From a bacterium (GTDB taxonomy: Bacteria > Patescibacteriota > Patescibacteriia > UBA1558 > UBA10009): a stretch of 64,000 bases of DNA. The notes beneath the pieces were generated by a model, which worked only from the letters and a program-made list of their open reading frames with translations, was not told the DNA's origin and ran no database searches. Where the stretch lies: NCBI GenBank assembly GCA_018672055.1, contig JABHGM010000001.1:8884-72883 (forward strand), in the 5' to 3' direction. The translations under genes and the position numbers were made by a program. Within the stretch, counting starts at the first letter, position 1, and each line of letters opens with the position of its first letter. Below are positions 26,402 to 63,933 of the stretch, in pieces.

Positions 26402-26403
26402 TA

Positions 26404-26434: not shown

Positions 26435-26449
26435 CTATACAATCAAATA

Positions 26450-27135: not shown

Positions 27136-27164
27136 ATTATAATAGTTTTTAAGACAAAAATCAA
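27136..27164 (-). promoter_or_regulatory. Candidate sigma70-type promoter (TTGATT-17-TATAAT on the minus strand) between pilC and the pilin array
   Basis: Reverse complement of 27136-27164 reads ttgatt-tttgtcttaaaaactat-tataat. It would give a ~190-nt leader to the pilin ATG at 26938. Confidence 0.35.
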
Positions 27165-27182
27165 TACTTATCAACAACTTAT

Positions 27183-28400: not shown

Positions 28401-28402
28401 AA

Positions 28403-29473: not shown

Positions 29474-29518
29474 ATTAAATTAATTAAATAATTATATAAT
29501 TGACAAGCATTATATATA

Positions 29519-29893: not shown

Positions 29894-29897
29894 TTAA

Positions 29898-31649: not shown

Positions 31650-31654
31650 AAAAT

Positions 31655-31987: not shown

Positions 31988-31988
31988 A

Positions 31989-32642: not shown

Positions 32643-32644
32643 AA

Positions 32645-33565: not shown

Positions 33566-33573
33566 CTTTTTAT

Positions 33574-37338: not shown

Positions 37339-37352
37339 TTATCTATTATAAA

Positions 37353-38207: not shown

Positions 38208-38223
38208 ATGTTTTAAATTAAAA

Positions 38224-38472
38224 TTAATTATGCACTACCTTAGCTCTAAGCTCAACTATCTTTTTTTGTAATTCGACTTTATTTATTTCATCACCAGATC
38301 TCATATCACGATCTACTACCACTGAGTCTAAATGTGATAAATCAGCTCCAGGACCAAAATATTTTTTATACAAATCCCCTGGCCAGAAGAATAAGCCAAT
38401 TAATATCAAAATAATAATCACAACTACTATTAAGATAATAACTGAACTCTTATTATTAGTTACTTGTTCCAT
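38224..38472 (-). CDS. Small single-pass membrane protein
   Basis: 82 aa; TM segment SVIILIVVVIIILILIGLFFW; no recognisable domain. Confidence 0.5.
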   Translation of the reverse strand: MEQVTNNKSSVIILIVVVIIILILIGLFFWPGDLYKKYFGPGADLSHLDSVVVDRDMRSGDEINKVELQKKIVELRAKVVHN

Positions 38473-38501
38473 ATATTTATATATTTAATATTATAAATTT
38501 A

Positions 38502-50547: not shown

Positions 50548-52623
50548 ATGTTAAATTTAGAAACCAAAGTAGAAGAGCTAACATCTGTTGGTAAAACAGC
50601 TGCTTCTCACTTAAAAAGACTAGGTATTGAAACAGTAGCCCACCTTATTGCTTGGTATCCTTTTAGATATGATGATTTTAGTCAATTAAAAGACATACGT
50701 GATTTAAAAGCAGGTGAAATTGCTACAGTTCAAGGTAAAATCGAATTACTAGCTACTAAACGCTCCCCTCGTAAAAAAATGATGATTACTGAATGTTTCT
50801 TAAGTGATGATACTGGTAGTATTAAGGCTATTTGGTTTGGGCAAAAATATATTACTAAAGTTTTAGAAAATAATGATTCTGTATTTTTCTCAGGTAAAAT
50901 AGATGGTGATCTTTTTGATCACTACTTTCAAAATCCGTCATTTGAAAAAGTAAGTGATGATACAGCACATACTGCTAGAATTGTTCCAATCTATCCCCTA
51001 ACTTACGGTTTAACTCAAAAACAAATAAGATTTTTAGTAAAACACTCTTTAGTAAATATTAAATTAAATGAAGATTGGTTAGGAGAAGATATAAAGAAAG
51101 AATATAATTTAATTGATTTAGATCAAGCTATACATAATATTCATTTCCCAGATGATTTAAAAGAATTATATAAAGCTAAAAGAAGATTAAAATTTGGTGA
51201 ACTTTTAGAATTTCATTTACAAAATTATTTAGTAAAAAAAGATTTAGAAAAAGCTTTAGCTATACCTTTAACTTTTAATGAGCTAGAAACAAAAAAAATT
51301 GTAAATAGTTTAGGTTTCACTTTAACCGATGCTCAAAAAAAATGTACTTGGCAGATATTACAAGACATGACTCTTAAAAAACCAATGAATAGATTATTAG
51401 AAGGTGACGTTGGTTCAGGTAAAACTGTAGTAGCCGCTCTGCCTATTGCTAATGCTGCTTTAAATGGCTATCAAACAGCTTTACTAGCACCAACTGAGAT
51501 ATTAGCCTTTCAACATTTTGAATCATTAAAAGAAATATTTAAAACTGTTGATTTAAATATTGCTCTTTTAACTAGAACTAAGCAATTAATTACTAATACT
51601 AAGAATCAAGAAGTAGAAAAAATAACTAAAGGTAAATTATTAAAAAAAATAAATTCAAAAGAAATAGATTTAGTAATAGGTACTCATGCAGTTATCCAAG
51701 ATAAAGTAGAATTTAATAATCTAGCTTTAGTTATAATAGATGAACAACATAGATTTGGCGTAGCTCAAAGAAAAGCAATTCGTGACAAATCAGGTGATAA
51801 AAATACTACACCTCATTTACTCTCTATGACAGCTACACCTATTCCCAGAACACTAGCTCTTACTCTCTATGGTGATTTAGATATATCCATAATTAATGAA
51901 CTACCGCCTGGTAGAAAAAAACCTGAAACTACATTAGTAGATAAGAGAGATAGAAATAAATCATATAAATTTATTGAGCAAGAAATATTAAAAGGTAGAC
52001 AAGCTTTTGTAATCTGCCCACTTATTGATGAATCTGATAAATTAGGCGTCAAAGCAGTTACTGAAGAGTATAAAAGATTAAGTGAAAAAGTATTCCCTAA
52101 CCTTAAAGTAGGTTTACTCCATGGTAAATTAAAAACTCAAGCTAAAGAAGATGTTATGAAAGAAATGAGTGAGAATAAAATAAATATTTTAGTTGCTACC
52201 TCTGTTATTGAGGTAGGTGTTAATATTCCAAATGCTAATGTTATGATTATTGAATCAGCTGAACGTTTTGGTTTAGCTCAACTTCATCAATTTAGAGGTA
52301 GAATAAATAGAAGTACTCATCAAGCATATTGCTACCTATTTTCTGATAATATTAACGAAAAAACATTTACCAGACTAAAAACTTTAACTGAGTGTTTTGA
52401 TGGCTTTAAACTAGCTGAAGTTGATTTAAAATTAAGAGGCAGTGGTAATATGTCAGGCACTCGTCAATCAGGATTATTCAATAATTTTAGAATAGCCAAT
52501 TTTAATGATGTTGAATTAATTGCTGAAACAAAAAAAGCTGCAGATAGTATAAGCACTAATGATCCACAACTAATAAATTATCCAGAAATTAAAGAAGCAG
52601 CTAAAGAAATACACCCTGAATAA
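50548..52623 (+). CDS. recG: ATP-dependent DNA helicase RecG
   Basis: N-terminal wedge/OB region. Helicase motif I DVGSGKTVVA, motif II DEQHRFGV, motifs V-VI (QFRGRINR). 691 aa. Confidence 0.9.
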   Translation: MLNLETKVEELTSVGKTAASHLKRLGIETVAHLIAWYPFRYDDFSQLKDIRDLKAGEIATVQGKIELLATKRSPRKKMMITECFLSDDTGSIKAIWFGQKYITKVLENNDSVFFSGKIDGDLFDHYFQNPSFEKVSDDTAHTARIVPIYPLTYGLTQKQIRFLVKHSLVNIKLNEDWLGEDIKKEYNLIDLDQAIHNIHFPDDLKELYKAKRRLKFGELLEFHLQNYLVKKDLEKALAIPLTFNELETKKIVNSLGFTLTDAQKKCTWQILQDMTLKKPMNRLLEGDVGSGKTVVAALPIANAALNGYQTALLAPTEILAFQHFESLKEIFKTVDLNIALLTRTKQLITNTKNQEVEKITKGKLLKKINSKEIDLVIGTHAVIQDKVEFNNLALVIIDEQHRFGVAQRKAIRDKSGDKNTTPHLLSMTATPIPRTLALTLYGDLDISIINELPPGRKKPETTLVDKRDRNKSYKFIEQEILKGRQAFVICPLIDESDKLGVKAVTEEYKRLSEKVFPNLKVGLLHGKLKTQAKEDVMKEMSENKINILVATSVIEVGVNIPNANVMIIESAERFGLAQLHQFRGRINRSTHQAYCYLFSDNINEKTFTRLKTLTECFDGFKLAEVDLKLRGSGNMSGTRQSGLFNNFRIANFNDVELIAETKKAADSISTNDPQLINYPEIKEAAKEIHPE

Positions 52624-53274
52624 TTATAACTGATTTATTATATAATCAAATTCATCTTGAGAAAGTAGTCCTTCTACTTTCTCATTATTTATATACAAAG
52701 TAGGCGTAGCTTCAACTCCTAAAGCTCTAGCTTCAGCAAAAGAGTTTGTAATTAAAGATAAAGTTCCTTGATTTTCATAACAGCTATTAAATCTAGCTAT
52801 ATCTAAATTTAAATTCTGAGCTATTTCTAAATATAGAGAACTACCTAAATTACTTTGATTAGCAAATACATTATCATGAAATTCCCAAAACTTACCCTGA
52901 ACTTGAGCGCATCTAGCAGCTACAGCAGCACTTAAACCTCTTGGATCATAAGTACCTGTAAAATCTTTCCAAACTATTTTTATTCTATCCCTATACTTAT
53001 CTAAAATATACTTTAAACTAGGTTGCAAATCACGACAATAGGAACAACTAAAACTTTCGAATAGAATTATAGTAATTTCTGAATTATTAATACCCAACCA
53101 AGGATCTGAAGTTAAAATTAATGGCTCATCTAAACTAAGCTTATTTGAATCTTCATTAATATTTTCATCTCTGTTAAGTGATTTATTTACTAAAATTAAT
53201 CTTACAACTAAAAGACCAACAAAAAAAATAAGGAGAACCTCTAAAAGTATGATAATTTTTTTTTGTTTTTCCAT
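52624..53274 (-). CDS. Membrane-anchored DsbA/thioredoxin-fold oxidoreductase (third paralog in window)
   Basis: N-terminal TM, CxxC active site (FSCSYCRDL), 'TPTLYINN' motif. Its stop abuts the recG stop with zero spacing. Confidence 0.75.
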   Translation of the reverse strand: MEKQKKIIILLEVLLIFFVGLLVVRLILVNKSLNRDENINEDSNKLSLDEPLILTSDPWLGINNSEITIILFESFSCSYCRDLQPSLKYILDKYRDRIKIVWKDFTGTYDPRGLSAAVAARCAQVQGKFWEFHDNVFANQSNLGSSLYLEIAQNLNLDIARFNSCYENQGTLSLITNSFAEARALGVEATPTLYINNEKVEGLLSQDEFDYIINQL

Positions 53275-53278
53275 TATC

Positions 53279-54565
53279 TTAAGGTAAGTCTATACTATAT
53301 ACATTATTATCTGAATTAGTAAAATACAAAGTTGATTCATCGCTAGATAGCATTACATTTTGTGCTTGATAACCTGTATCACTATCAGGTACAGCAAGTA
53401 AAGAATAACTACCTGTTTCTAAGTTTATCAAATAAAAGTCATCTGGTACTTCGTTTGCTAATTCTGGATACCAACCACTACCAGTGGGCAAATCTCTAGG
53501 TACAGCACAATAAGCAGAACCACCTGACCCATTGATAGTACATTTATGTGCCCAGGTATTTAATCTAAGATCAGTATTATTTAAACCAATATTATTACCT
53601 TGAGCATCAACTATCCATAACTGAGGTTTAAAACTAGTATTTGCACTATATACAGAATAAAACATTCTAGTACCATTAGGCGTCCAAACTCCTTCAAAGC
53701 CTCTGCCTTCTGGAACAAATGATTTAAAATTTTCTTGATTTTGACCAATAAATATTATTTCTTGTCTATTTGCATCATAACTATCTCTAAATGTAGCTAC
53801 AACCTGATTATTAGGTGAAAAATCTACATTAACATCACTCGCTCTATCCCCTATCTGTTCAATAAATCTAATATTCGAACCATTAGAATTAGCAGTAACT
53901 ATCCAATTATTTTCTTTGTTAGGTCCAATTACTTCTGCAGCTATTTGATTACCGTCATTTGAAAAAGTAAATTCTCTCATTTCTTTAGGTAAAGTAATCT
54001 GTTTTTTTTCTTGAAAATCATATAATATATTCGCTCCATCAGGATATTCTAAAATTGCTTGAGAACCATTCCTGTCCCAAGTAATACTTTCAACTTGATG
54101 AAATACTTTATCTGAATACTCAGCTAATTGACCATTACTTAACACTTTTAAAAATTTACCAGATGAACTATCGTAAAATACCAAACCTTGTGATGATGTC
54201 ATAGCACCTTTAGAACTACTAAAAGTATTTTTTTGAACTTCAGTTAAACCACCTCTAGCTACTTTACTAGGCACTAAACCTTGAAATGAGGTATCATCAG
54301 GAGATACTTGATCTGTAGGTCTAGTTACTACTTCTGGTAATTGACCAGGCTCTAAGACTGTATCAGATGGAATAAAGGTAGTAGGTGTAGTAGTTATTTC
54401 TGATTTAAAGAAAAATATGTAAAGCAAATAACTTAAAGATATTACTATAAGTAGTAAAATAATTCCCATTAATATTTTTTTCCAAGGTAACACCATATAA
54501 TAATTATTTACATTCTGCTTTATTAAAACCGCCCCAATCAGAATTTCCATATTCATTAACTCCAA
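53279..54565 (-). CDS. Membrane-anchored TolB-like beta-propeller protein
   Basis: TM helix (GIILLLIVISLSYLLYIFFF) followed by a Thr/Pro-rich linker and PD40-like repeats (FSNDGNQIA, DFSPNNQVVA, WTPNGTRMFY, MLSSDESTLYF). The true start may be Met24 (~54496). Confidence 0.6.
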   Translation of the reverse strand: MELMNMEILIGAVLIKQNVNNYYMVLPWKKILMGIILLLIVISLSYLLYIFFFKSEITTTPTTFIPSDTVLEPGQLPEVVTRPTDQVSPDDTSFQGLVPSKVARGGLTEVQKNTFSSSKGAMTSSQGLVFYDSSSGKFLKVLSNGQLAEYSDKVFHQVESITWDRNGSQAILEYPDGANILYDFQEKKQITLPKEMREFTFSNDGNQIAAEVIGPNKENNWIVTANSNGSNIRFIEQIGDRASDVNVDFSPNNQVVATFRDSYDANRQEIIFIGQNQENFKSFVPEGRGFEGVWTPNGTRMFYSVYSANTSFKPQLWIVDAQGNNIGLNNTDLRLNTWAHKCTINGSGGSAYCAVPRDLPTGSGWYPELANEVPDDFYLINLETGSYSLLAVPDSDTGYQAQNVMLSSDESTLYFTNSDNNVYSIDLP

Positions 54566-55529
54566 ATACTTCAGGATTTAATACATAGCCTTCTGATAAA
54601 TCAATAGTACAATTTAAAACATTTGAAGCACAACTTATACCAAATATATATTGAACTCCGCCATTATCACGATAAGCATTTAATTTTCCGCATTGCAAAT
54701 TACCGCTGTAAGTAAAAATTATTGTATCTCTCGACCAAGGAATGCTAGGTTTTAAAGAAAATTGCTCTACACAATGCGCTTTACCAAATACATTCTCCCC
54801 ATTTTTTATAATATCTTCTACCCAGGGCGATTCTCCATTTTTTAAATCCCCTATATAGCTGCAAACTCCACGAGGACCATAAGCATTTCCACAAGCCGCA
54901 TAACTACATGAATCATTTTTTCTTAACACGCCGCATGAATTGTAAGTATCGTCAGAGGGAGTACTGGGATTACAAAAATTACATTCTCCTATAACCATAT
55001 TACCAGGCTGATCTTTACAAAATTCACCACAAGCTAATTGATTAGCTTCTTTTAACGAACCATCTAGATTATAACATCCTGTTGATGTTTCAATAGGCGA
55101 AATATTAAAATTAAATTTTACTAATTCTGGATTAATCTGAATTAATAATACATACGAACCAAGCGCTAAGAATAAACCAGCCACAGCACCAACGATAGTT
55201 TCTTGAGCTGAGGTAATTTTAGTAGGATTACCGCCACTAAATAACCATTGCACACCACCATACATAATCATAAAAACTGCTACTATACCAGCAATACCTA
55301 CAAAAAATTTATAAAAATGTTGAATATAGGGAATTAATAGATTACCCTGCTTGTCACCTACAAATTCATAATTACCACAAGTAGAATTATATTCTAAATA
55401 CATTCCAGGAATTGGTACTTCTAAGACAATAGCTCCTTCAGTCTGCTTACAATCAGCTGCAAATAAACTAAACATAGGAACTAAAAATATAGCCGTAAAT
55501 ATTGAAATTATTATTATTTTTTTTATCAT
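54504..55529 (-). CDS. Signal peptide + two-TM hairpin + Cys-rich (about 16 Cys) extracytoplasmic domain protein
   Basis: Signal peptide MIKKIIIISIFTAIFLVPMFSLFAA. Two hydrophobic helices (FFVGIAGIVAVFMIMYGGVQWLF and IVGAVAGLFLALGSYVLLIQI) separated by a short loop. About 200 aa C-terminal domain with many Cys. Confidence 0.6.
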   Translation of the reverse strand: MIKKIIIISIFTAIFLVPMFSLFAADCKQTEGAIVLEVPIPGMYLEYNSTCGNYEFVGDKQGNLLIPYIQHFYKFFVGIAGIVAVFMIMYGGVQWLFSGGNPTKITSAQETIVGAVAGLFLALGSYVLLIQINPELVKFNFNISPIETSTGCYNLDGSLKEANQLACGEFCKDQPGNMVIGECNFCNPSTPSDDTYNSCGVLRKNDSCSYAACGNAYGPRGVCSYIGDLKNGESPWVEDIIKNGENVFGKAHCVEQFSLKPSIPWSRDTIIFTYSGNLQCGKLNAYRDNGGVQYIFGISCASNVLNCTIDLSEGYVLNPEVFGVNEYGNSDWGGFNKAECK

Positions 55530-55548
55530 ATTATTTTATGAGTTTATT

Positions 55549-56172
55549 TTAAAATGGACTTTTAATTACTTTCCAGATTGTCTGAAAAGTTGTTTCAACA
55601 GGATGAGTAATTGCATATAAAATTATTATAAATATATAAAGTGTAAAAATTACTATAAAATTTACCAATATCAACGCTGGCATATCTATCTTTTCTAACT
55701 TAGGAACCCATTTAACTTTAATCAAATTACCAAAAATTAACTGTGCATTCATTATAAAAACAACTAATATTATACCACCAGGGGTTACTGCTAAAGTACC
55801 ATTTATAAATCGATACATTCTTTGTAATCTCTTAACTCTTAAACCAACTGTTTTCTGTTTTAAAGTTAAATTTTTTGTTTTTTGTAATTTACGTGCTGCT
55901 TTTTTTTGTTGATCTAACGTCTTCTTATACTCTAAAGCTCTATCTCTTAAACCTTTTTTTTCGAGAACTTTTTCCTGATCAGGTTTAACATCTTCATCGT
56001 CTGCTTGCCTATTAATATTCTCAGGCACTCTAACAGGTGCTCCTAAATTACCTTTATTATAATCTTCTTTCTTCTTTTTCTCTTGACGCGTATTTTCATT
56101 AAAATCTTTTGCATATTTAAGGGAATTATCATTAGAAGGTGAACTCTGAATATTATTTAATCCTTCTACCAT
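55549..56172 (-). CDS. Hypothetical membrane protein (K/E-rich N-terminus, two C-terminal TM helices)
   Basis: Low-complexity charged N-terminal half. C-terminal TM segments IILVVFIMNAQLIF and LILVNFIVIFTLYIFIIILYAI. Confidence 0.5.
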   Translation of the reverse strand: MVEGLNNIQSSPSNDNSLKYAKDFNENTRQEKKKKEDYNKGNLGAPVRVPENINRQADDEDVKPDQEKVLEKKGLRDRALEYKKTLDQQKKAARKLQKTKNLTLKQKTVGLRVKRLQRMYRFINGTLAVTPGGIILVVFIMNAQLIFGNLIKVKWVPKLEKIDMPALILVNFIVIFTLYIFIIILYAITHPVETTFQTIWKVIKSPF

Positions 56173-56175
56173 ATA

Positions 56176-56739
56176 TTATTCTAACCATTCAAAATCATTA
56201 ACTAACCAGCTATTCCCAGCTTCAACTAAATTTAATTCTAAATCTTGATATATTACTGATATTTCACTACCAATTGTTTCTTCTCTTTGTAAAGTAATTA
56301 TAATATTAGCATTACCATTTTCTTCATCTAAAGCATTAATATCTGTTTTTAAAACTTTTGAACTTATACCATAAAATTCATCACTGCCTTCACTATCTTC
56401 TATCATCTCATTAAGCTTAACCTTTAACAAATTAGTTGATAATAATTTAACTTCTTCTAGATTTAAAAAACCACTATCAGAAGAATAACTAGCAAAACGC
56501 TCAGCAAAATTATTTGCTACAGTAGTTACTGTTACTTCAATAGGAGTTAAATTAATTATTACTTCTGGCTCTACTATTACTTCAGGTACAGAAGTATCAT
56601 CAATTACTATATCTTGATCAAAACTAATAACCTCTGGTTCATCAAAAAAGGAATCATCCATTAGAAGTACAGCTATAGCTAGACCAATTACTACTATTAC
56701 TATTAGAGAAATTATTATTATATTTTTTTTACTCATCAT
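56176..56739 (-). CDS. Hypothetical single-pass membrane protein with an acidic ectodomain
   Basis: N-terminal TM IIIISLIVIVVIGLAIAVLLM followed by a D/E-rich domain. Confidence 0.5.
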   Translation of the reverse strand: MMSKKNIIIISLIVIVVIGLAIAVLLMDDSFFDEPEVISFDQDIVIDDTSVPEVIVEPEVIINLTPIEVTVTTVANNFAERFASYSSDSGFLNLEEVKLLSTNLLKVKLNEMIEDSEGSDEFYGISSKVLKTDINALDEENGNANIIITLQREETIGSEISVIYQDLELNLVEAGNSWLVNDFEWLE

Positions 56740-56740
56740 A

Positions 56741-58645
56741 TTATTTATTATTTTCTTTATTATCTTCTCCGCCTTGTGAATTCATTTGAGCTTCAAACTC
56801 TTTCTTAGAAGCTTCAATTTCTAAAAGTTGTCTTGGATCAGAAGTTATTATTTGATCTTCAGTATATGAAGCCCTAACTAAAAGAGCCACATGCTTATTA
56901 CCAGCAAAGAAAATACCTTCACCAACATTACCTTCTAAAAGTAAATACTTTTCACCTTCTGTTAAATTAAAAGTTTTTTGAACTATATCAATACCAGCTG
57001 GTGACTGTTTAAGAAGAAGTTGCAAAGCTGAATTAGTTACAATAGCCTGACCATAAGGTGAACCAAGAAAATCATTAACATCCTGAGTAATTGTAGTAAC
57101 CCCTAAATAATACTTACGACATCTTTTAACTAAAGCAAAGATAAATTTAGCACTATCCTCTCTTTGCATTAACCACCAAGCTTCATCAATAATTAATATT
57201 CTTTTTTTAACTTCAGATCTTACAGTATTCCATATGTAATTAATTATAGTATAAATAGCAATAGGTTTTAATTCATCTTCTAAATCACGAACCGAAAAAC
57301 AAATTAACTGATTCTTAACATCAATATTTGTAGGTGAATTAAATAATCCAGCAAAAGTACCCTCAGTATACTTTTTAAGACGTATTACTAAATCACTAGC
57401 CCCTTCCATACCACTTAAAATTTCTTCTAAATCTTTCATAAGTGGTGGATCAATATTATTTAAATCAGAATCAACCGTTATATCTTTTTTAGCATAAGTC
57501 TCTATTAAAGCACGATCAATTAATGAATCTTCAGCATGCGTTAAATCTCCAAGCATTAAACGAACTAAACCTTTTAATGTAATAACTGAACTTCTTAAAA
57601 TATCTGCAGGTCTAGAATCACTTTCAGTGGGACGTGGTAAATCAAAAGGATTTAATTTACTTTCTGAATTTAATGATAAGTTAATATATGCACCACCAAC
57701 AGCATCACTTAGATACTTATACTCACTTTCTGGGTCAATAATCATTACTTCTGTACCCATCATCATACTTCTTAAAATTTCAAGTTTAATAGCATAAGAT
57801 TTACCAGCTCCAGATGTTGCAAAAACTACTGAGTTAGGATTTTGTAAACTAAATCTATCAAAAATTATTAAACTATTGTTATGCCTATTAATACCATATA
57901 ATATTCCATCATCTGAAGTTAATTCAGATGAAATAAATGGGAAAGATGTAGCAATAGGTGAAGAATTCATATTAAATGAAATCTGTAACTCATCATTACC
58001 AAGAGGTAAACTTGAATTAAAACCTTGCTCTGCTTGATAGAGGGCACGTTTAGTATATACAAGCTTAGAGCCAAAAATAGATTCTACTTTTTCTACCATT
58101 CTATCTAATTCTTCTTTAGAATCAGCATAAATTGTAGTATATAATGAAAATTGAAAAAATCTCTCAGTACCTTGTGTTAACTCATCTCTTAATTTTTCAA
58201 TATCGCGTAAAGCTGTTTCACGTAATGGATCACGAGGAGCACCTTTTTCTGCATCAGCCATAAGCTGTGCTTCTAAATTACCAACCTTTTTCCTTAATTG
58301 TTTTAAAATAACTTCAGTTTTAACTTGATAGAAAAACATGGATATATCAAGTGGTGAACTATAGTTAATGATTGAAGAAAACCAACCTACACTAATATAT
58401 CTAGGATAATTAATTACAAATAAAGTTGTTAAATACTTGCCATTTAATTCAACGGCTCTGGGATCAACTTTAAAACTAGCAGGAGCAATAATATCACGAA
58501 CCGAGGTGACTCCCTCTCTATATATTTTTTCAGCTTCAAGTAATTTTTTCTGCTCTTTAGCGCTAAGCTTTATTTTATTCTTCTTATCTTTCTTTTTAGA
58601 AAGCTTTACTTCTTGCTGCTCTATTTTTGATGTTTGAAAAGCCAT
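56741..58645 (-). CDS. VirB4/TrbE-family type IV secretion ATPase, ATPase portion
   Basis: 'KYLTTLFVINYPRYISVGWFSSI' VirB4-type region, Walker A VVFATSGAGKSYAI, Walker B RILIIDEAWWLM, 'GVTTITQ' motif. Resembles Gram-positive conjugative VirB4 homologs (Tn916 Orf16 / TcpF-like). Confidence 0.75.
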   Translation of the reverse strand: MAFQTSKIEQQEVKLSKKKDKKNKIKLSAKEQKKLLEAEKIYREGVTSVRDIIAPASFKVDPRAVELNGKYLTTLFVINYPRYISVGWFSSIINYSSPLDISMFFYQVKTEVILKQLRKKVGNLEAQLMADAEKGAPRDPLRETALRDIEKLRDELTQGTERFFQFSLYTTIYADSKEELDRMVEKVESIFGSKLVYTKRALYQAEQGFNSSLPLGNDELQISFNMNSSPIATSFPFISSELTSDDGILYGINRHNNSLIIFDRFSLQNPNSVVFATSGAGKSYAIKLEILRSMMMGTEVMIIDPESEYKYLSDAVGGAYINLSLNSESKLNPFDLPRPTESDSRPADILRSSVITLKGLVRLMLGDLTHAEDSLIDRALIETYAKKDITVDSDLNNIDPPLMKDLEEILSGMEGASDLVIRLKKYTEGTFAGLFNSPTNIDVKNQLICFSVRDLEDELKPIAIYTIINYIWNTVRSEVKKRILIIDEAWWLMQREDSAKFIFALVKRCRKYYLGVTTITQDVNDFLGSPYGQAIVTNSALQLLLKQSPAGIDIVQKTFNLTEGEKYLLLEGNVGEGIFFAGNKHVALLVRASYTEDQIITSDPRQLLEIEASKKEFEAQMNSQGGEDNKENNK

Positions 58646-58646
58646 A

Positions 58647-59330
58647 TTAATGATCTTCCATTCTTAATTTATTAATATCTACTAATTTCTGAGCATCAAC
58701 TATTTCTGGATTATATGTATTGTAATATAATTCAATTAAGCTTTGAGTATCTAATTGAAGAGCTTTCATACCCATTGAACCTAAACTACCTGATACAAAA
58801 TCAACTCTTTTACCAACCTCTTCTTGAAAACGTACAAATCTTTTTCTACTCATAGTAACAGAAACTGCAGGTTGAAAAGATTCAGTTAACCTTTCCCAAA
58901 ACTTTTTCTTAGCTTTCTTTAAACCCATAAATGGTACTACAACATAAAACTTCTTAGTCATAATCTTACCTAGATCAAGTAACTCTTGTAAAAAATCTTT
59001 GTAATCAGCAATCTGCATCCTAAGCAACTCATTAGTTTGTTCTTTTTCTAAATTATTTAATTTCTCTAAATACCTATCAATATTTAAATATCTAGACTGA
59101 ATAACTATTTGTAATGGAAAATCTAAAGAGTTTAAAAAACCAATATATGCTTGAATCAAAGCATTTTGTTCATCCTCGCCTTTTAAGGCAAAATTAATTG
59201 AAGAAACAAGTAAAGTAGCACGAACTGTACCATCTCGTAAAATAACTAAGTTATCACGAATCTCAGCAATATCTAAATATTGTTGAGTTGATGCTTTTGG
59301 CTTATTTCCTGCTAACTTATTTTTCTTCAT
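58647..59330 (-). CDS. VirB4 N-terminal-domain-like protein (separate ORF, 1-nt spacer to the ATPase ORF)
   Basis: 'IAEIRDNLVILRDGTVRATLLVSSINFALKGEDEQNALIQAYIGFLNSLDFPLQIV' resembles the N-terminal region of Firmicute VirB4 homologs (I.F.DINY.L..EDK..I...Y..FLN). Combined length with the next ORF is 861 aa, similar to full-length VirB4. Confidence 0.5.
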   Translation of the reverse strand: MKKNKLAGNKPKASTQQYLDIAEIRDNLVILRDGTVRATLLVSSINFALKGEDEQNALIQAYIGFLNSLDFPLQIVIQSRYLNIDRYLEKLNNLEKEQTNELLRMQIADYKDFLQELLDLGKIMTKKFYVVVPFMGLKKAKKKFWERLTESFQPAVSVTMSRKRFVRFQEEVGKRVDFVSGSLGSMGMKALQLDTQSLIELYYNTYNPEIVDAQKLVDINKLRMEDH

Positions 59331-59333
59331 ATA

Positions 59334-59807
59334 TTATTTAATTTCTAAATCTGTTAAATCATTTTGAAAATGTGACATTTGAGCTACTTCACCTTTATAT
59401 ACGCCACCTGTATCAATTATTAAGGAAAGGTCAGATAATCTAGAACGAGTTACTATTTTTTTAGAGACTATTTCTTTCTTAGGCATTAACTCTTCTTTTT
59501 CTTTTTCTTCCTTAGTTTTGGTATTTAAATCTCGTGCCCATATTCTTAATTTTGGTCTTTTAAATGTTTGTAATACATTTAATGCAAAATAATGAAAAGG
59601 CATACTATTTATTTTAATAAAAGCAATTACTAGAAATATAGCGGCAGTTGGAATACCAGTTAAAAGAAATAGAGCCATATCAGATAATTTATACTCTAAA
59701 AACATTATTAATCCAGCAATTACTAAGAGTATAAACTGTCTAACAGTAATAGGACCAATTATCTTATCCTCTACTTCTATAAATTGTGGTACTGTTGCTT
59801 GTCTCAT
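59334..59807 (-). CDS. PrgI-family (VirB3-like) small membrane protein
   Basis: 'ATVPQFIEVEDKIIGPITVRQFILLVIAGLIMFL' then a second TM 'LTGIPTAAIFLVIAFIKI'. This is the PrgI pattern (VP..L...EDKI.G.LT.RQ + 2 TM), located immediately upstream of VirB4 as in Gram-positive T4SS. Confidence 0.6.
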   Translation of the reverse strand: MRQATVPQFIEVEDKIIGPITVRQFILLVIAGLIMFLEYKLSDMALFLLTGIPTAAIFLVIAFIKINSMPFHYFALNVLQTFKRPKLRIWARDLNTKTKEEKEKEELMPKKEIVSKKIVTRSRLSDLSLIIDTGGVYKGEVAQMSHFQNDLTDLEIK

Positions 59808-59810
59808 ATA

Positions 59811-60875
59811 TTAAAATCTAAGTTTAGTATTTAAATCAGAAATAGCATCAAACTCAAAGGAAGTCATTATCTCTTTACCCTGATCTACGTATTGCTTAAT
59901 AACATCAGCAACGGACATGTTGTGTTCCATACTAGCCTGGCCAATAGCTAAATACATTTTATATAAAGGACTTCTTCTCCAAGCGTTTAAACCTTTAGCT
60001 TTTTTAATTAAAGATTCATTAGTTAATAAGTTAATCTTGTCAGATATCTTTTGGGCTTGTCTCTCTGGATCAGCCCCTAATCTTCTAAAAGTAGCCAAAG
60101 TTAAAGAAGCTAACTCTTCAACTGGACCTACTAATTTATATTCTTTAGAAATATCATCAAGCTTACCTTTTTTCTTAGGACGATTAAACTTAGTAGTTGT
60201 CTTAATTAAAGGTTCTACTTTTTCAGGAAGCTCTTCTTGAATAACTTGTTTAACTATTTTTTTCTTAGGAATAATAGTAGGTGGTATAAATGAAGACTCT
60301 TCTTTTAACCTTTCAATATCTTCATCAATTACAATACCTTTCTCTTTATTTACTTTATCTTTAATATCTCTTAAAAATGCTAAAACTTTATCTATTATTT
60401 CAGATTCAAACCCTACTCCACCTTCTTCCTGAGGACGCTCTAATACTTCAGAAGCGTCTATTATAGTTCTTCTATCTCTAAGTAAAGTAACAATTACATC
60501 TCTTAATCTTTTAGTTTGTTCTTCATCTAAACTTAAATTAAGAGTCTCAACTAATTTATTTAAAATCTTATCCAAAGAATATTTTTTTTGAGGTAACATC
60601 TCTTTAGGTACAGATATTTTAGACACTTCTTCTTCATCATTTGGATGAAAATAAAAACTGGCATTTTTTTTACGAATAGCTGGAGGCGGAGGTTGTAAAA
60701 CCAGCTCTTCTTTGCCAGTATCAATTATATCAGTAACTTCTTTTTTTTGAGGTTCACTAAAAGATTCTTGGTGGAAAGGCTTTAACTCGCCATCAATTAA
60801 TATTTTATACTCTCCATTTTCATCACGTACTACTATCTGATCTTGAATTGTATTTGTTTTTGATTTTTGAGGCAT
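59811..60875 (-). CDS. Hypothetical soluble protein (354 aa) in the T4SS-like cluster
   Basis: No TM segments, charged and low-complexity, no recognised motif. Confidence 0.5.
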   Translation of the reverse strand: MPQKSKTNTIQDQIVVRDENGEYKILIDGELKPFHQESFSEPQKKEVTDIIDTGKEELVLQPPPPAIRKKNASFYFHPNDEEEVSKISVPKEMLPQKKYSLDKILNKLVETLNLSLDEEQTKRLRDVIVTLLRDRRTIIDASEVLERPQEEGGVGFESEIIDKVLAFLRDIKDKVNKEKGIVIDEDIERLKEESSFIPPTIIPKKKIVKQVIQEELPEKVEPLIKTTTKFNRPKKKGKLDDISKEYKLVGPVEELASLTLATFRRLGADPERQAQKISDKINLLTNESLIKKAKGLNAWRRSPLYKMYLAIGQASMEHNMSVADVIKQYVDQGKEIMTSFEFDAISDLNTKLRF

Positions 60876-60877
60876 GG

Positions 60878-61849
60878 TTATAATGTAGTAATTGGCCTTG
60901 ACTGTAAAATATATAATTTATTTTTAGAATATGCCCATTCAACATCTTGAGGACATTTATAATGCTTCTCTATTTTTTTAATAACTTCAGCTAGTTCAAT
61001 AATCTCTTTACCTGTTAACTTTTGTTTTTCTTGAATATTCTTAGCAACACTTTTTAAAACACTCCCCCCACCTTTCTTCATAATAATCTGTTTTTCTTGC
61101 TTTACAATATTTATATCTAAAATAGTTCCTTCTTTTTTATGCACGATATATGAATCAGGCGTAATAATTCCAGAAACAATAGCTTCACCTAACCCAAATC
61201 CTGCTTCAATAATCATTTGATTATAATCTTCAGTAACAGGGTGAACACTAAAAGCTACACCAGACACTTCACTATCAATCATTTTCTGAATTACCACAGC
61301 TACACTAACACTAACCTTATGTAACTTCTTTTCAAATCTGTAGAATATAGCGCGGGGAGTAAATAACGAAGCCCAACACTTTTTAACATTAGTAATTAAA
61401 TTCTTTTCATCGATATACAAGAAAGTATCAAGTTCACCAGCCCAAGATGCAATAGATGAGTCTTCAGCAGTAGCTGAAGATCTAACAGCAACCCATTTAC
61501 ACTTTAATTTCTTAAATTCTTTGTGTATTGCTTCTTCAATAGGCTTAGGCACATTAGAATCCATGATCATGTCATTGATTACATTAGATGCCTTATCAAT
61601 ACTATTAACATCTTGATAGTTTACCTTGTTAAGCTCAGCTTCTATCAAGACATTTAAGTCTCCTTGACCAGGACCAGCTGGTGGCGGAGTATCATTTAAA
61701 AAACTATCAAAAGCAGATGCTAAGACTACATAACCAGGTGGTACAGAGAGCTTAGCTTGAGTCATTTCACCCAAAGAAGCACCCTTACCCCCAGCAATGC
61801 CTACATCTTTCTTTTTTAGCTTTGTAAAGGGTAAAACAAAATTATTCAT
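60878..61849 (-). CDS. PEP synthase/PPDK N-terminal nucleotide-binding domain (PPDK_N) stand-alone protein
   Basis: GIAGGKGASLGEM...SVPPGYVV, VAVRSSATAEDS...WAGELDTFL, FTPRAIFYR, SGVAFSVHPVT, EAGFGLGEAIVSGIITPD, PQDVEWAYSKNKLYILQSRPITT. Confidence 0.8.
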   Translation of the reverse strand: MNNFVLPFTKLKKKDVGIAGGKGASLGEMTQAKLSVPPGYVVLASAFDSFLNDTPPPAGPGQGDLNVLIEAELNKVNYQDVNSIDKASNVINDMIMDSNVPKPIEEAIHKEFKKLKCKWVAVRSSATAEDSSIASWAGELDTFLYIDEKNLITNVKKCWASLFTPRAIFYRFEKKLHKVSVSVAVVIQKMIDSEVSGVAFSVHPVTEDYNQMIIEAGFGLGEAIVSGIITPDSYIVHKKEGTILDINIVKQEKQIIMKKGGGSVLKSVAKNIQEKQKLTGKEIIELAEVIKKIEKHYKCPQDVEWAYSKNKLYILQSRPITTL

Positions 61850-62092
61850 AAGTTGAATTCTAATTAATTATAACATAAATTAGGGGTATCTAACAATAAT
61901 TATTTTCTTATACAATTTATCTTAAAATAATATAAATAAACCTTATTATACTTGACATTTTATTCAATATATGCTATACTTATATATTGAATGAACATTA
62001 ACATAGCTTTCAATCTGTAGTCTATTTTGGCTAAGATTAGAGAATAATTCAATAAAAACAAACAAACCGTCCAATAGGGCAAGGAGTTAAAC

Positions 62093-62752
62093 GTGTTACA
62101 AAAAGAAAATATAGCAATATCAAGAATCATTGACCTAATACCACACGGAACAAAATTGGTAAAATTTCTAGGCAGACATGCTAAATCAGTTCAGAAAGGC
62201 ACTCAAGAAACTAGAACGCTTTCAGAGAAAGGCGTGGATCTCTGTAAAGATGTTTCATATTTCTACGGTAGATTATTTCTTCACCTGCGTGATAGTTATG
62301 GGGAATTTGAATACTGCTCATCAGAATGGCCCAGATCATTACTGACAACATTCCTGACAACCAAAGAAACTCAGATTGTAATGCTGAATAATATGACTAT
62401 TCCTGTCGGTGCAAGCCTGAAAAATCTCAATGATGGAGAATGGTTCAGAGAACGGAAAGCAAAAAAAATGACTGTTGTTGAAATGATTCAAGAATTCTTG
62501 AAAAATAGAGATGTGCTTGGTGGAAAACCTTTTGATGAATATGAACAAGCATACATCTCTTGGGTTATGGAAGACATTTATTCTAAAGCTGGATTTTTTC
62601 ATGAAATCGGCTGCACTTTGGCTGCCATTAAACTGGGAATTAATCCTGAAGAAGCTGGACTAAATGAGTGCCAAGGCTATCTGTTCTGCCTTGATAATTC
62701 CGCTAAAGTATTGTCCGTAATTAAAGTTGCTCCTCCAGCAACACTCGAATAG
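62093..62752 (+). CDS. Hypothetical protein; compositionally GC-richer than its neighbours, SD plus GTG start
   Basis: AAGGAG 7 nt upstream of the GTG start. Visibly higher G+C than flanking genes. Has its own terminator. No recognised domain. Confidence 0.55.
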   Translation: MLQKENIAISRIIDLIPHGTKLVKFLGRHAKSVQKGTQETRTLSEKGVDLCKDVSYFYGRLFLHLRDSYGEFEYCSSEWPRSLLTTFLTTKETQIVMLNNMTIPVGASLKNLNDGEWFRERKAKKMTVVEMIQEFLKNRDVLGGKPFDEYEQAYISWVMEDIYSKAGFFHEIGCTLAAIKLGINPEEAGLNECQGYLFCLDNSAKVLSVIKVAPPATLE

Positions 62753-62841: not shown

Positions 62842-63933
62842 TTATTTTCTTTTTATAACATTCATTATTCCATTAGTACCATCTACCTCTACAATATCAC
62901 CGTCTTTTAATATCTTGGTAGCACTTTTAGCGCCAATAATACATGGTATACCTGCTTCACGTGCCAGCGTTACTGGATGCGATGTAATACCTGGTCCTCC
63001 ATCACAGACCATGCCTACTGATAATGAAATAATTGTTGAAAATACTGGAGTAGCTTGTAAGGTGGCAATAATGTCACCTTTTTTTACTTTATGAAAACTA
63101 TCTGGATTAATTACTATTTTAACAGGTCCTTTTGCTTTGCCTGGGGAAACCGGTTGACCTGTTAAATATTTAGCCTTCATATCAATTTTAACGTACTTCT
63201 TAAATATATCCTCAGCTTTTTTTTCAATAATAACCTTTGCTCCTGTATGGCTACACTGCCAGCATGATAATTTAATTCTTTCAGATAATTCTCTAGAATA
63301 ATCCTTTTTACCTACCAAAGCTTTTCTAAATTCATTCATCTTAAAATGTCTTATTTGATTAACAGTTAAAGCTAAACGTCTAGCTGATTCATTTAAAACT
63401 GGATCAAAATAGTAAAGAGATAATGATACTATAGTTTTTCTAAGCTCTTTATAATACATACCTTCTCTCATGGTCTGAAATAATCTAGCAGTGTCTTTAT
63501 CAATATCTAATTTTTTTATAATTCTCTTTTGATCTGAATCTAGCTTTTTTTCTTCATTTATTAGCTTACTTAACTTATTATTAGGATTACCTGTTAAATG
63601 CTTTTTAAAACGTAATATAAAGTCTTCGAATGTAAGTACTGGATCTTCGTAATCACGAGTTAGCCAAAAATAATTCTTTTCATGAGCTTTAATTAATTTA
63701 TATAGCTCTTTATCTTTTTTTATACCTTCTAAATTATTAGATTTAATTAATTTAACCCATTTATCTTTTTTAGATATTATTACTAATAATTTCAAAGCAG
63801 CTACGAGTTCTTTACGATTAACCATAGCTGAGTATTCAGTAATTAATACATTTAAATATTTACCTGCTTTTTGTTTATCACTTACTTTATTGAATATATA
63901 ATTCCTTAGATATTCAAATAAATAATTTTCCAT
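62842..63933 (-). CDS. PEP-utilising enzyme 'mobile' (phosphohistidine swivel) domain protein; reading frame stays open upstream to the window edge
   Basis: C-terminal 'GQPVSPGKAKGPVKIV...GDIIATLQATPVFSTIISLSVGMVCDGGPGITSHPVTLAREAGIPCIIG' matches the PEP-utilisers swivel domain (GG..SHAAI.ARE.GIP). In-frame sequence upstream of Met (63934-64000) has no stop, so the true N-terminus may lie outside the window. Confidence 0.7.
   Translation of the reverse strand: MENYLFEYLRNYIFNKVSDKQKAGKYLNVLITEYSAMVNRKELVAALKLLVIISKKDKWVKLIKSNNLEGIKKDKELYKLIKAHEKNYFWLTRDYEDPVLTFEDFILRFKKHLTGNPNNKLSKLINEEKKLDSDQKRIIKKLDIDKDTARLFQTMREGMYYKELRKTIVSLSLYYFDPVLNESARRLALTVNQIRHFKMNEFRKALVGKKDYSRELSERIKLSCWQCSHTGAKVIIEKKAEDIFKKYVKIDMKAKYLTGQPVSPGKAKGPVKIVINPDSFHKVKKGDIIATLQATPVFSTIISLSVGMVCDGGPGITSHPVTLAREAGIPCIIGAKSATKILKDGDIVEVDGTNGIMNVIKRK

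What the first reader, a model, noticed from the sequence alone, without database searches (positions are those of the whole stretch)
52624..61849. Gram-positive-style type IV secretion module (PrgI-like + VirB4 + membrane proteins) without a relaxase or coupling protein in the window, bracketed by a DsbA-like protein and PEP-synthase-domain genes
A co-directional minus-strand block encodes the following, in order of transcription. First a PrgI/VirB3-like 2-TM protein and a VirB4 family ATPase split into an N-terminal-domain ORF plus an ATPase ORF. Then two small membrane proteins and a signal-peptide + 2-TM-hairpin protein with a ~200-aa Cys-rich ectodomain. Last come a membrane-anchored TolB-like beta-propeller and a DsbA-like oxidoreductase. 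No VirD4/TraG coupling ATPase, relaxase, integrase or oriT-like repeat is evident within the window. The module therefore looks chromosomal and not dedicated to plasmid or ICE conjugation. It could serve protein delivery, host-cell interaction or DNA uptake. The TolB-like propeller and Dsb partnership are not standard T4SS components, so the composition may represent an undescribed variant.
Basis: partly seen in the sequence, partly recalled or inferred. Interest (0 to 1): 0.75.

Follow-up and report, generated by a model that had tools for sequence, protein, structure and literature searches.

The report
Patescibacteria chromosomal type IV secretion operon
This is the chromosomal, non-conjugative type IV secretion gene cluster typical of ultrasmall Patescibacteria (class ABY1), a system described in 2023-2025, so it is a genuine but ordinary member of a known kind.

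Summary
Window 52624-61849 (minus strand) is one tightly packed 11-gene block. In order of transcription it encodes a PPDK_N protein, a conserved unknown cytoplasmic protein (g354), PrgI/VirB3 and TrsD (the separate VirB4 N-terminal domain). Then come the VirB4 ATPase, a bitopic protein shown here to have a VirB8 fold, and a small 2-TM protein. Last are a VirB2-like pilin fused to a 16-Cys ectodomain, a membrane-anchored PD40-type beta-propeller and a membrane-anchored DsbA.

No relaxase, coupling protein, integrase or att/oriT-like repeat was found in the 64-kb window or in 7 kb further upstream. The core g354-PrgI-TrsD-VirB4-VirB8-like is syntenic in about 80 species-level ABY1 genomes (Falkowbacteria, Kerfeldbacteria, Komeilibacteria), usually next to recG, radA or comF.

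This is the Patescibacteria-clade T4SS derived from the MPF-FATA class (Wang 2023; Quinonero-Coronel 2025). It is therefore not an undescribed variant.

Three points are modestly new:
- The VirB8 fold assignment is near-universal in these loci.
- Pilin, propeller and DsbA form a recurrent linked sub-module.
- The pilin ectodomain is hypervariable.

A VirB6-like protein, adjacent in many relatives, is missing from this window.

The parts
61867..61896 (-). promoter-like site (TTGTTA, 18 nt, TG-TATAAT) just upstream of the first gene of the block
   Evidence: Consensus scan, 10 of 12 matches with an extended -10 TG. The total number of such sites in the region is not above the shuffled expectation, so this is only a candidate.
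60878..61849 (-). stand-alone PPDK_N (PEP synthase ATP-binding domain) protein, 323 aa. It is probably co-transcribed but lineage-specific, and not a T4SS part.
   Evidence: Pfam PPDK_N E 9.1e-94. There is a 2-nt gap to the next gene. It is found upstream of the T4SS core in only 9 of 81 related loci. Three PEP-utilizers genes lie further upstream on the source contig.
59811..60875 (-). g354: conserved cytoplasmic protein of unknown function, with two helical domains joined by a variable Pro-rich linker. It is always immediately upstream of prgI.
59334..59807 (-). PrgI / VirB3-like 2-TM protein
   Evidence: Pfam PrgI PF12666 E 3.5e-9, 37.5 bits against a 27-bit cutoff. TMs at 16-34 and 46-64. 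Present in 79 of 81 loci.
58647..59330 (-). TrsD-like protein: the VirB4 N-terminal domain encoded as a separate ORF
   Evidence: NCBIfam VirB4_plasma positions 92-236, E 7.8e-10; TrsD/TraD 2.5e-7; CD1110 positions 8-133. PF26593 TraC-like on the source contig. It is a separate ORF of about 225 aa in 81 of 81 loci, so the split is ancestral and not a frameshift.
56741..58645 (-). VirB4-family ATPase (C-terminal two thirds; Walker A GAGKS, Walker B IIDEAW)
   Evidence: NCBIfam conju_CD1110 E 1.8e-111, 373.7 bits against a 325-bit cutoff, covering model positions 170-733. Pfam P-loop_TraG 2.8e-29. The best solved relative is Thermoanaerobacter VirB4 4ag5 at 1.9e-50, against TrwK at 2e-9. At least 413 relatives; the best 80 are 67-83% identical and are nearly all from Patescibacteria MAGs.
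56176..56739 (-). VirB8-like bitopic protein (N-terminal TM, disordered linker, NTF2-like domain)
55549..56172 (-). g207: small membrane protein with a charged, probably disordered N-terminal half and a C-terminal 2-TM hairpin. It is fast-evolving and its function is unknown.
   Evidence: No family hit. TMs at 122-140 and 167-185. Proteins of the same position and topology sit between the VirB8-like gene and the pilin gene in about 14 related loci, including loci that also have a VirB6-like gene, but sequence similarity is low.
54504..55529 (-). VirB2-like T4SS pilin (signal peptide plus TM hairpin) fused to a ~210-aa hypervariable Cys-rich ectodomain
   Evidence: Pfam T4SS_pilin PF18895 E 7.1e-8, above cutoff. 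It has 16 Cys. In relatives there are 50 such ORFs in 30 loci, median length 442 aa and median 19.5 Cys. The ectodomain alone has only 6 hits at E<=1e-3 among 1.84 billion representatives; the two relatives tested (P0166, P0169) are also pilin fusions.
53279..54496 (-). membrane-anchored extracytoplasmic PD40-type beta-propeller (405 aa from the ATG at 54496)
   Evidence: Weak PD40 hit, 5.2e-4. 862 or more homologs of about 410 aa; relatives carry PF07676, PF26550 and PF26549 on record, and PD40 scores above cutoff in P0080 and P0117. It has an N-terminal TM. The start position follows the gene call on the source contig. It lies next to a pilin in all 21 loci that have it, among 45 loci with enough flank.
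52624..53274 (-). membrane-anchored DsbA-like thiol-disulfide oxidoreductase (CSYC active site)
   Evidence: Pfam Thioredoxin_4 3.3e-29 and DSBA 1e-12. TM at 6-24. It lies downstream of the T4SS core in 21 of 45 loci with enough flank: 15 with pilin and propeller, 1 with pilin only, and 5 directly after the VirB8-like gene.
50548..52623 (+). recG, convergent and abutting the DsbA gene: the conserved chromosomal neighbour
   Evidence: RecG domains are on record for this gene on the source contig. RecG lies on the opposite strand downstream of the T4SS in 40 of 81 loci. This matches the ABY1 context reported in PMC12102498.
47077..47727 (+). ComF-like protein (double zinc ribbon plus PRTase): the competence-related neighbour typical of ABY1 T4SS loci
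   Evidence: Pfam Pribosyltran 1.3e-10 and DZR_2 2.9e-4. A ComF-like gene directly follows the VirB8-like gene in many relatives.

Best explanation
The block is the chromosomal type IV secretion system of a Patescibacteria (CPR) bacterium of class ABY1. Its closest named relatives are Komeilibacteria and Falkowbacteria.

Shown here:
- The cluster encodes a monoderm-type inner-membrane platform: PrgI/VirB3, a VirB4 ATPase split into TrsD plus the ATPase, and a VirB8-fold bitopic protein.
- It also encodes a VirB2-like pilin.
- The genes are packed as one operon and conserved in position across about 80 species.
- No relaxase, coupling protein, integrase or element boundary was found nearby.

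Inferred:
- VirB4, anchored by PrgI and scaffolded by the VirB8-like protein, probably drives membrane extraction and polymerisation of the pilin into a short surface fibre or channel.
- A polytopic VirB6-like protein encoded elsewhere in this genome probably takes part.
- The fibre would carry a hypervariable, disulfide-rich ectodomain.
- The membrane-anchored DsbA probably oxidises that ectodomain outside the membrane.
- The anchored beta-propeller probably acts as an assembly or cell-wall-spanning accessory.

By analogy with Southlakia epibionticum, where the homologous cluster is essential for growth on a host, the machine most likely serves contact with a host cell and exchange with it (protein export or import of host material), not plasmid or ICE conjugation.
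For: - Component identities come from profile matches and the VirB8 fold.
- The VirB4 is closest to a Firmicute VirB4 structure (4ag5, 1.9e-50) and far from Gram-negative TrwK (2e-9). It passes the NCBIfam CD1110 cutoff.
- At least 413 relatives were found. The best 80 are 67-83% identical and are nearly all Patescibacteria MAGs named Falkowbacteria, Kerfeldbacteria or Komeilibacteria.
- Synteny is strong: g354, PrgI, TrsD and VirB4 occur in 78-81 of 81 loci and the VirB8-like gene in 75.
- Among 45 loci with at least 6 kb downstream, 15 have pilin + propeller + DsbA and 6 have pilin + propeller. The propeller is never found without a pilin.
- No relaxase, T4CP or integrase was found in the window or in 7 kb upstream.
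- GC content is uniform at about 0.28-0.31 across the block itself (52-61 kb) and its downstream flank; it rises to 0.34 only over the PPDK_N end and the upstream orphan ORF, within the window's overall range of 0.27-0.38. No flanking repeats were found.
- The literature describes the same architecture and the same non-conjugative reading, including the ABY1 link to recG, comF and radA (PMC12102498). It reports essentiality and pilin arrays in Saccharibacteria (PMC10633639; PMC12857230).
Against: - No VirB6-like polytopic protein is present in the 64-kb window, although many relatives carry one two genes upstream of g354. The machine in the window is therefore incomplete on its own, and the VirB6 of this organism was not located.
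- No VirB1-like hydrolase was seen.
- A T4CP or relaxase elsewhere in the genome cannot be excluded. The 2025 survey finds T4CP homologs in most Patescibacteria genomes, usually far from virB4.
- No ABY1 member has been cultured or mutated, so function is transferred from Saccharimonadia.
- The link of DsbA and the propeller to the T4SS rests on gene neighbourhood only, and the window has two further DsbA paralogs.
- The propeller was not modelled.
Confidence: 0.78

Rival explanations
1. The machine is a DNA-uptake or DNA-exchange device (comparable to H. pylori ComB or the archaeal Ced importer) that works with the neighbouring recombination and competence genes.
For: - recG abuts the operon, and a ComF-like gene lies 5 kb away.
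- In relatives, ComF or RadA directly follow the VirB8-like gene.
- PMC12102498 notes this ABY1 co-localisation and suggests functional coordination.
- The VirB4 has a weak match to CedB (1.7e-15).
- A full T4P cluster lies in the same window.
Against: - The CedB score is 56.7 bits against a cutoff of 700, whereas the CD1110 match passes its cutoff. The CedB match is therefore generic VirB4/HerA similarity.
- In S. epibionticum, competence depends on ComEC and T4P. Deleting comEC abolishes transformation but not viability, while the T4SS is essential.
- recG, radA and comF are housekeeping genes on the opposite strand or outside the operon here.
Confidence: 0.12
2. It is part of, or a decayed remnant of, an integrative conjugative element whose relaxase, coupling protein and integrase lie outside the window.
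For: - The VirB4 belongs to a family named for ICE and plasmid conjugation ATPases.
- T4CP genes are often encoded far from virB4.
- A minority of Patescibacteria do carry relaxases.
Against: - The same gene order sits in the same chromosomal context (recG, radA, comF) in about 80 species-level genomes with 67-83% VirB4 identity. This indicates vertical inheritance.
- There is no GC shift across the T4SS genes themselves, no flanking repeats and no tRNA-adjacent integrase.
- All ORFs are intact and tightly packed.
- Relaxases were found in only 103 of 3,035 Patescibacteria genomes.
Confidence: 0.04
3. The DsbA and the beta-propeller are general envelope housekeeping genes that merely sit next to the T4SS operon and play no part in it.
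For: - Two more DsbA paralogs lie at 380-1769, next to Cys-containing giant surface proteins.
- T4P pilins in the window also carry 4-6 Cys, so many substrates exist.
- 18 of 45 related loci have neither gene downstream of the core.
Against: - The propeller is found only together with a Cys-rich pilin (21 of 21 loci). DsbA follows the T4SS core in 21 of 45 loci, in several arrangements, including directly after the VirB8-like gene.
- The genes share the strand with 4-7 nt gaps here.
- The adjacent pilin has 16 Cys, and its relatives have up to 30.
Confidence: 0.3

Closest known systems
Patescibacteria-clade T4SS, ABY1 arrangement (Quinonero-Coronel et al. 2025, Microb Genom, PMC12102498)
   Same: - A VirB4 whose close relatives are nearly all Patescibacteria.
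- A separate TrsD ORF, PrgI/VirB3 and a VirB2-like PF18895 pilin near virB4.
- No relaxase or T4CP nearby.
- A chromosomal location next to recG and comF.
   Different: - That survey found VirB8 homologs only rarely (about 50, mostly ABY1). Here a VirB8-fold protein follows VirB4 in 75 of 81 sampled loci.
- The DsbA, the propeller and the Cys-rich pilin fusion are not mentioned in its main text or held supplements.
- No VirB6 lies near virB4 in this window.
Southlakia epibionticum ML1 T4SS cluster SEML1_0006-0019 (Wang et al. 2023, Cell, PMC10633639)
   Same: - A Gram-positive-like subunit set plus essential VirB2-like pilins.
- No recognisable relaxase or coupling protein in the cluster.
- A proposed role at the epibiont-host interface.
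   Different: - It belongs to a different class (Saccharimonadia).
- It has an array of six divergent pilins, whereas this window has one pilin fused to a large Cys-rich domain.
- It has an adjacent VirB6 and peptidoglycan hydrolases.
- According to PMC12102498, no structural VirB8 homolog was detected there.
- Its function was tested by Tn-seq; nothing has been tested for ABY1.
MPF-FATA conjugative T4SSs of monoderms (pGO1 TrsC/D/E, pCF10 PrgH-L, pIP501, C. difficile CTn2 CD1110)
   Same: - A VirB4 of the CD1110 family.
- PrgI-type VirB3.
- A TrsD-type separate N-terminal domain, as in pGO1.
- A PrgL/TraM/TraH-like VirB8-fold bitopic protein.
- No outer-membrane core components.
   Different: - Those systems are on plasmids or ICEs, with a relaxase, a T4CP, a VirB1-like hydrolase, VirB6 (PrgH) and surface adhesins, and they lack VirB2 pilins.
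- This block is chromosomal, has a pilin, and lacks all the DNA-processing parts in the window.
F-type T4SS thioredoxin-fold accessory proteins TrbB and TraF
   Same: A thioredoxin-fold periplasmic or extracytoplasmic protein encoded with a pilus-forming T4SS.
   Different: Only sub-threshold matches were found: TraF PF13728 at 16.7 bits against a 23-bit cutoff, and TrbB TIGR02738 at 14.6 bits against 132. The protein here is a membrane-anchored DsbA/BdbD-like oxidase, not a member of those families.

Membership tests
Patescibacteria-clade T4SS (MPF-FATA-derived) | VirB4 ATPase of the monoderm (MPF-FATA) lineage whose nearest relatives are patescibacterial | tested here: met
   CD1110-family score of 373.7 bits exceeds the 325-bit cutoff. 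The best solved relative is Firmicute VirB4 4ag5 at 1.9e-50, against TrwK at 2e-9. The 80 best genomic relatives (67-83% identity) are nearly all Patescibacteria MAGs. No explicit phylogeny with MPF reference sequences was built.
Patescibacteria-clade T4SS (MPF-FATA-derived) | TrsD (VirB4 N-terminal homolog) encoded next to virB4 | tested here: met
   58647-59330 lies 1 nt upstream of virB4 and matches TrsD/TraD and VirB4 N-terminal models. It is present in 81 of 81 loci.
Patescibacteria-clade T4SS (MPF-FATA-derived) | PrgI/VirB3 homolog near virB4 | tested here: met
   PF12666 scores above cutoff. Present in 79 of 81 loci.
Patescibacteria-clade T4SS (MPF-FATA-derived) | VirB2-like pilin (PF18895/PF04956) near virB4 | tested here: met
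   PF18895 scores 32.8 bits against a 26.6-bit cutoff. The relative P0169 also hits TrbC/VirB2.
Patescibacteria-clade T4SS (MPF-FATA-derived) | No relaxase, and no T4CP adjacent to virB4; chromosomal context | tested here: met
   No such domains in the 64-kb window or in 7 kb upstream. The recG/comF context is conserved. The rest of the genome was not searched.
Patescibacteria-clade T4SS (MPF-FATA-derived) | VirB6-like polytopic membrane protein | tested here: not met
   No polytopic protein of this kind lies in the window. blastp of 37 VirB6-like proteins from related loci against all window ORFs gave no hit. Relatives have it two genes upstream of g354, with weak TrbL hits (best E 2.2e-4). 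A metagenome scan did not locate this organism's copy. The 2025 survey also finds VirB6 in only a minority of genomes, so this is not a strict requirement for the family.
Conjugative MPF-FATA T4SS / ICE | Relaxase (MOB) and oriT | tested here: not met
   No relaxase domain in the window or upstream flank. No inverted repeats above chance.
Conjugative MPF-FATA T4SS / ICE | VirD4/TcpA-type coupling protein | tested here: not met
   None in the window or flank (same calls). Elsewhere in the genome could not be tested.
Conjugative MPF-FATA T4SS / ICE | Integrase or recombinase and element boundaries (att repeats, compositional shift) | tested here: not met
   No integrase domain. GC is about 0.28-0.31 across the T4SS genes, as in the downstream flank. 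No flanking direct repeats. The locus is syntenic across about 80 species.
VirB8 / PrgL / TraM family (NTF2-like T4SS scaffold) | Bitopic topology: N-terminal TM followed by an extracytoplasmic NTF2-like domain | tested here: met
VirB8 / PrgL / TraM family (NTF2-like T4SS scaffold) | Detectable sequence homology to VirB8 or PrgL profiles | tested here: not met
   No Pfam or NCBIfam hit. A profile of 10 homologs finds no PDB sequence. The assignment rests on fold, topology and gene position only.
TolB | PD40 beta-propeller | tested here: inconclusive
   The window protein scores 20.3 bits, below the 20.9-bit cutoff. The relatives P0080 and P0117 score 26.5 and 31.7 bits. No structure was predicted.
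TolB | TolB N-terminal alpha/beta domain and Tol-Pal partners | tested here: not met
   There is no TolB_N hit; the N-terminus is a TM anchor plus a low-complexity linker. No Tol-Pal genes lie in the window. It is a PD40-type propeller, not TolB.
DsbA-like thiol-disulfide oxidoreductase | Thioredoxin fold with a CXXC motif, located outside the cytoplasm | tested here: met
   Thioredoxin_4 3.3e-29 and DSBA 1e-12. The CSYC motif is visible in the sequence. N-terminal TM anchor.

The most novel reading that the evidence does not exclude
In class ABY1 the T4SS pilin has become a host-recognition device. A VirB2-like membrane hairpin is fused to a hypervariable, disulfide-knotted ectodomain. That ectodomain would be matured and mounted by a dedicated membrane-anchored DsbA and a PD40 propeller. 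An ABY1-specific cytoplasmic protein (g354) might replace the missing coupling protein as the substrate or regulatory partner of VirB4. This would be a distinct, undescribed sub-type of the Patescibacteria T4SS with its own accessory set.
Probability: 0.25. Interest if true: 0.55.

Novelty: new member of a known kind. Interest (0 to 1): 0.3.

Why it matters
The Patescibacteria T4SS is currently one of the more interesting open problems in secretion biology. It is essential in the one species tested, it is widespread, it is apparently pilus-forming in a monoderm, and its substrate is unknown. This window adds no new kind of system.

The comparative work here does sharpen the ABY1 parts list:
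- A VirB8-fold scaffold is near-universal in the sampled loci.
- A conserved unknown cytoplasmic partner (g354) always precedes prgI.
- A pilin-propeller-DsbA sub-module recurs.
- The pilin ectodomain evolves very fast, as expected for a host-contact surface.

These are concrete targets for structure prediction of complexes, and for genetics once an ABY1 co-culture exists.

Tried and rejected
- **Iterated HMM for the propeller.** The profile drifted onto the VirB8-like family through the shared TM-plus-linker N-terminus. Hits shorter than 300 aa were discarded.
- **VirB6 of this organism.** Three attempts failed. blastp of relatives' VirB6-like proteins against window ORFs gave nothing. A metagenome scan with a VirB6-like alignment found 458 or more relatives, but none on the JGI contig that carries this locus. 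A profile search against PDB sequences gave nothing.
- **g207 as a minimal VirB6.** Rejected, because proteins of the same position and topology co-occur with the large VirB6-like gene in relatives.
- **Pilin ectodomain.** A search of 1.84 billion representatives gave only 6 weak hits. No family could be defined, which I read as hypervariability.
- **TrsD against PDB sequences.** No meaningful hit.
- **Repeat scan for att or oriT.** Only chance AT-rich matches.
- **Supplement search of PMC12102498 for thioredoxin, DsbA, PD40 and PPDK.** No occurrence in the held files, which may be truncated.

Full report
**Observation**

Window 52624-61849 carries eleven co-directional minus-strand ORFs separated by 1-19 nt.

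- 56741-58645 is a VirB4-family ATPase. NCBIfam conju_CD1110 gives E 1.8e-111 and 373.7 bits, above the curated 325-bit cutoff, covering model positions 170-733. Pfam P-loop_TraG gives 2.8e-29.
- 58647-59330, one nucleotide upstream, matches only the N-terminal part of VirB4 models and the TrsD/TraD family. It is labelled TraC-like on the source contig.
- 59334-59807 is PrgI (PF12666, above cutoff) with two TM helices.
- 54504-55529 carries a T4SS_pilin (PF18895) hairpin at residues 69-123, behind a signal-like helix. A ~210-residue tail follows, and the protein has 16 cysteines.
- 52624-53274 is a membrane-anchored DsbA-like protein with a CSYC motif.
- 53279-54565 has a TM anchor and a sub-threshold PD40 hit. 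Its relatives score above the PD40 cutoff. The gene call on the source contig starts at 54496, which removes the apparent overlap with the pilin gene.
- 60878-61849 is a stand-alone PPDK_N protein.

**Surroundings**

The window is a low-GC (about 0.30) stretch of chromosome typical of CPR bacteria. It holds:
- a complete type IV pilus cluster;
- three giant LamG surface proteins;
- LigA, ClpB and GatCA;
- a ComF-like gene;
- three tRNAs;
- recG, abutting the DsbA gene.

No ORF of at least 90 aa in the window carries a relaxase, VirD4/TcpA or integrase domain. The exact VirB4 sequence occurs on a 417-kb ENA contig and a 214-kb JGI contig. On these, the 7 kb upstream of PPDK_N hold three PEP-utilizers genes and nothing conjugative. 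GC across the T4SS genes (52-61 kb) and the downstream flank is about 0.28-0.31. It rises to 0.34 only over the PPDK_N end and an orphan ORF upstream, within the window's overall range of 0.27-0.38. No repeats above chance bracket the block.

**Relatives**

A scan of species-representative genomes found at least 413 loci encoding a relative of the VirB4. The best 80 are 67-83% identical. They come almost entirely from MAGs named Patescibacteria, Falkowbacteria, Kerfeldbacteria or Komeilibacteria, that is, class ABY1. tblastn, iterated HMM searches and ORF maps of these loci gave the following.

- The core is invariant: g354, PrgI, TrsD, VirB4 and the 187-aa protein occur in 78, 79, 81, 81 and 75 of 81 loci. 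The VirB4 split is therefore ancestral, not a frameshift.
- Three alternatives follow downstream:
  - a small 2-3-TM protein, one or two Cys-rich pilins, the propeller and DsbA, then RadA and a convergent recG;
  - ComF;
  - RadA and recG directly.
- Of 45 loci with at least 6 kb of downstream flank, 15 have pilin + propeller + DsbA, 6 have pilin + propeller, 5 have DsbA alone directly after the core, 1 has pilin + DsbA, and 18 have none. The propeller never occurs without a pilin.
- Many loci carry, two genes upstream of g354, an 850-1440-aa protein with 6-9 TM helices and a strongly conserved AQYN-FI...GW-IVRD-NMFF motif. It gives weak TrbL/VirB6 matches in 4 of 18 members (best E 2.2e-4) and is a probable extended VirB6.
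- This window has no such gene. PPDK_N and the PEP-utilizers genes occupy that position, as PPDK_N does in 8 other loci.
- I could not locate this organism's VirB6.

**New assignments**

The pilin ectodomain has only six weak relatives among 1.84 billion cluster representatives. The two that were checked are also pilin fusions. It therefore evolves very fast.

**What it is**

All of this matches the published Patescibacteria T4SS. Quinonero-Coronel et al. 2025 (PMC12102498) surveyed 3,035 genomes and reported:
- a monophyletic patescibacterial VirB4 clade nested in MPF-FATA;
- TrsD as the most abundant companion, plus PrgI/VirB3 and VirB2-like pilins (PF18895) near virB4;
- relaxases in only 103 genomes;
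- T4CP homologs mostly far from virB4;
- VirB8 homologs rare and nearly all in ABY1;
- for ABY1 specifically, co-localisation with comF, recG and radA.

Wang et al. 2023 (PMC10633639) showed by Tn-seq that the homologous cluster, including its pilins, is essential for epibiotic growth of Southlakia epibionticum. They noted that it lacks recognisable coupling and relaxase proteins. The 2025 FEMS review (PMC12857230) summarises it as a monoderm T4SS that may build a pilus for exchange with the host. It also points out that comEC deletion abolishes competence without affecting viability.

**Mechanism**

Shown:
- the parts list and the tight operon-like packing;
- vertical conservation of the locus;
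- absence of DNA-processing genes nearby;
- predicted extracytoplasmic topology (N-terminal TM anchor) of the VirB8-like protein, the propeller and DsbA.

Inferred:
- VirB4 is completed by TrsD, anchored by PrgI and scaffolded by the VirB8-like protein, and works with a VirB6-like channel encoded elsewhere.
- This platform extracts the pilin from the membrane and assembles a surface fibre or conduit whose exposed part is the variable, disulfide-rich domain.
- DsbA oxidises that domain, and the propeller assists assembly or spans the wall.
- The machine mediates contact and exchange with a host cell.

I give the identity high confidence and the functional reading moderate confidence.

**Rivals**

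- A DNA-uptake role is suggested by the recG/comF/radA neighbourhood. The Saccharibacteria genetics weaken it, and so does the generic nature of the CedB match.
- An ICE or ICE remnant is very unlikely, given the synteny across about 80 species and the lack of boundaries.
- DsbA and the propeller may be unrelated neighbours. This remains a real possibility (about 0.3), because two more DsbA paralogs lie in the window and the evidence is neighbourhood only.

**Novelty and score**

Three increments are useful but modest:
- a near-universal VirB8-fold protein in the sampled ABY1 loci;
- a conserved unknown cytoplasmic partner (g354);
- a recurrent pilin-propeller-DsbA sub-module with a hypervariable ectodomain.

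Interest is 0.3. The most novel reading still open is a distinct ABY1 sub-type with a dedicated adhesin-maturation module. I give it a probability of about 0.25 and an interest of about 0.55 if true.

Noticed in passing
window 21471-34761 (-): A complete type IV pilus cluster: PilM, a PilO-like protein, PilB, a response regulator, a PilT-like protein, PilC, three major-pilin-like genes, the prepilin peptidase and several minor pilins. T4P and T4SS are both essential in cultured Saccharibacteria. Here they lie 18 kb apart on the same strand.
   Followed up: partly
window 3601-19486 (-): Three tandem giant secreted proteins (1786, 1781 and 1733 aa). Each has five or six LamG/ConA-like domains plus DUF2341 and fibrinogen-like or sialidase-like segments. 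They are probable host-adhesion surface proteins.
   Followed up: no
window 380-1036 and 1017-1769 (-): Two further membrane-anchored DsbA/Thioredoxin_4 paralogs in tandem, next to gatCA. The second shows two thioredoxin-like stretches. The DsbA beside the T4SS is therefore one of at least three in 64 kb.
   Followed up: partly
window 40247-41884 (+): A Kelch-repeat protein with a C-terminal Por_Secre_tail (type IX secretion sorting domain, E 2.7e-10) in what should be a monoderm CPR genome without a T9SS. This is unexplained.
   Followed up: no
window 60878-61849 and 62842-63933 (-); L001:1-5804: PEP-synthase-like domains are dispersed over separate genes. One is a stand-alone PPDK_N protein. 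Upstream lie three proteins (513, 479 and 978 aa) that carry only the PEP-utilizers swivel domain. PPDK_N directly precedes the T4SS core in 9 of 81 related loci. Function is unknown.
   Followed up: partly
L010:21-3581, L016, L026, L027, L040, L063:4-4515 (related loci): In several ABY1 relatives the VirB6-like gene is preceded by a 970-1500-aa protein with 31-90 cysteines, no predicted TM segment and no Pfam match for the one tested (L010). This is another Cys-rich candidate T4SS-associated surface protein. It is absent from this window.
   Followed up: partly
window 62093-62752 (+): A 219-aa ORF on the opposite strand between the PEP-utilizers and PPDK_N genes. It has no family match, is found only in this organism's own contigs, and sits in a slightly GC-richer stretch (0.34). 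The source contigs call shorter genes here. It may not be a real gene.
   Followed up: no
window 34909-39977 and 41997-42989 (-): Four proteins with an N-terminal signal or anchor (809, 284, 491 and 330 aa) and no Pfam family, lying between the T4P cluster and the LemA/M48 genes. They are uncharacterised envelope proteins.
   Followed up: no
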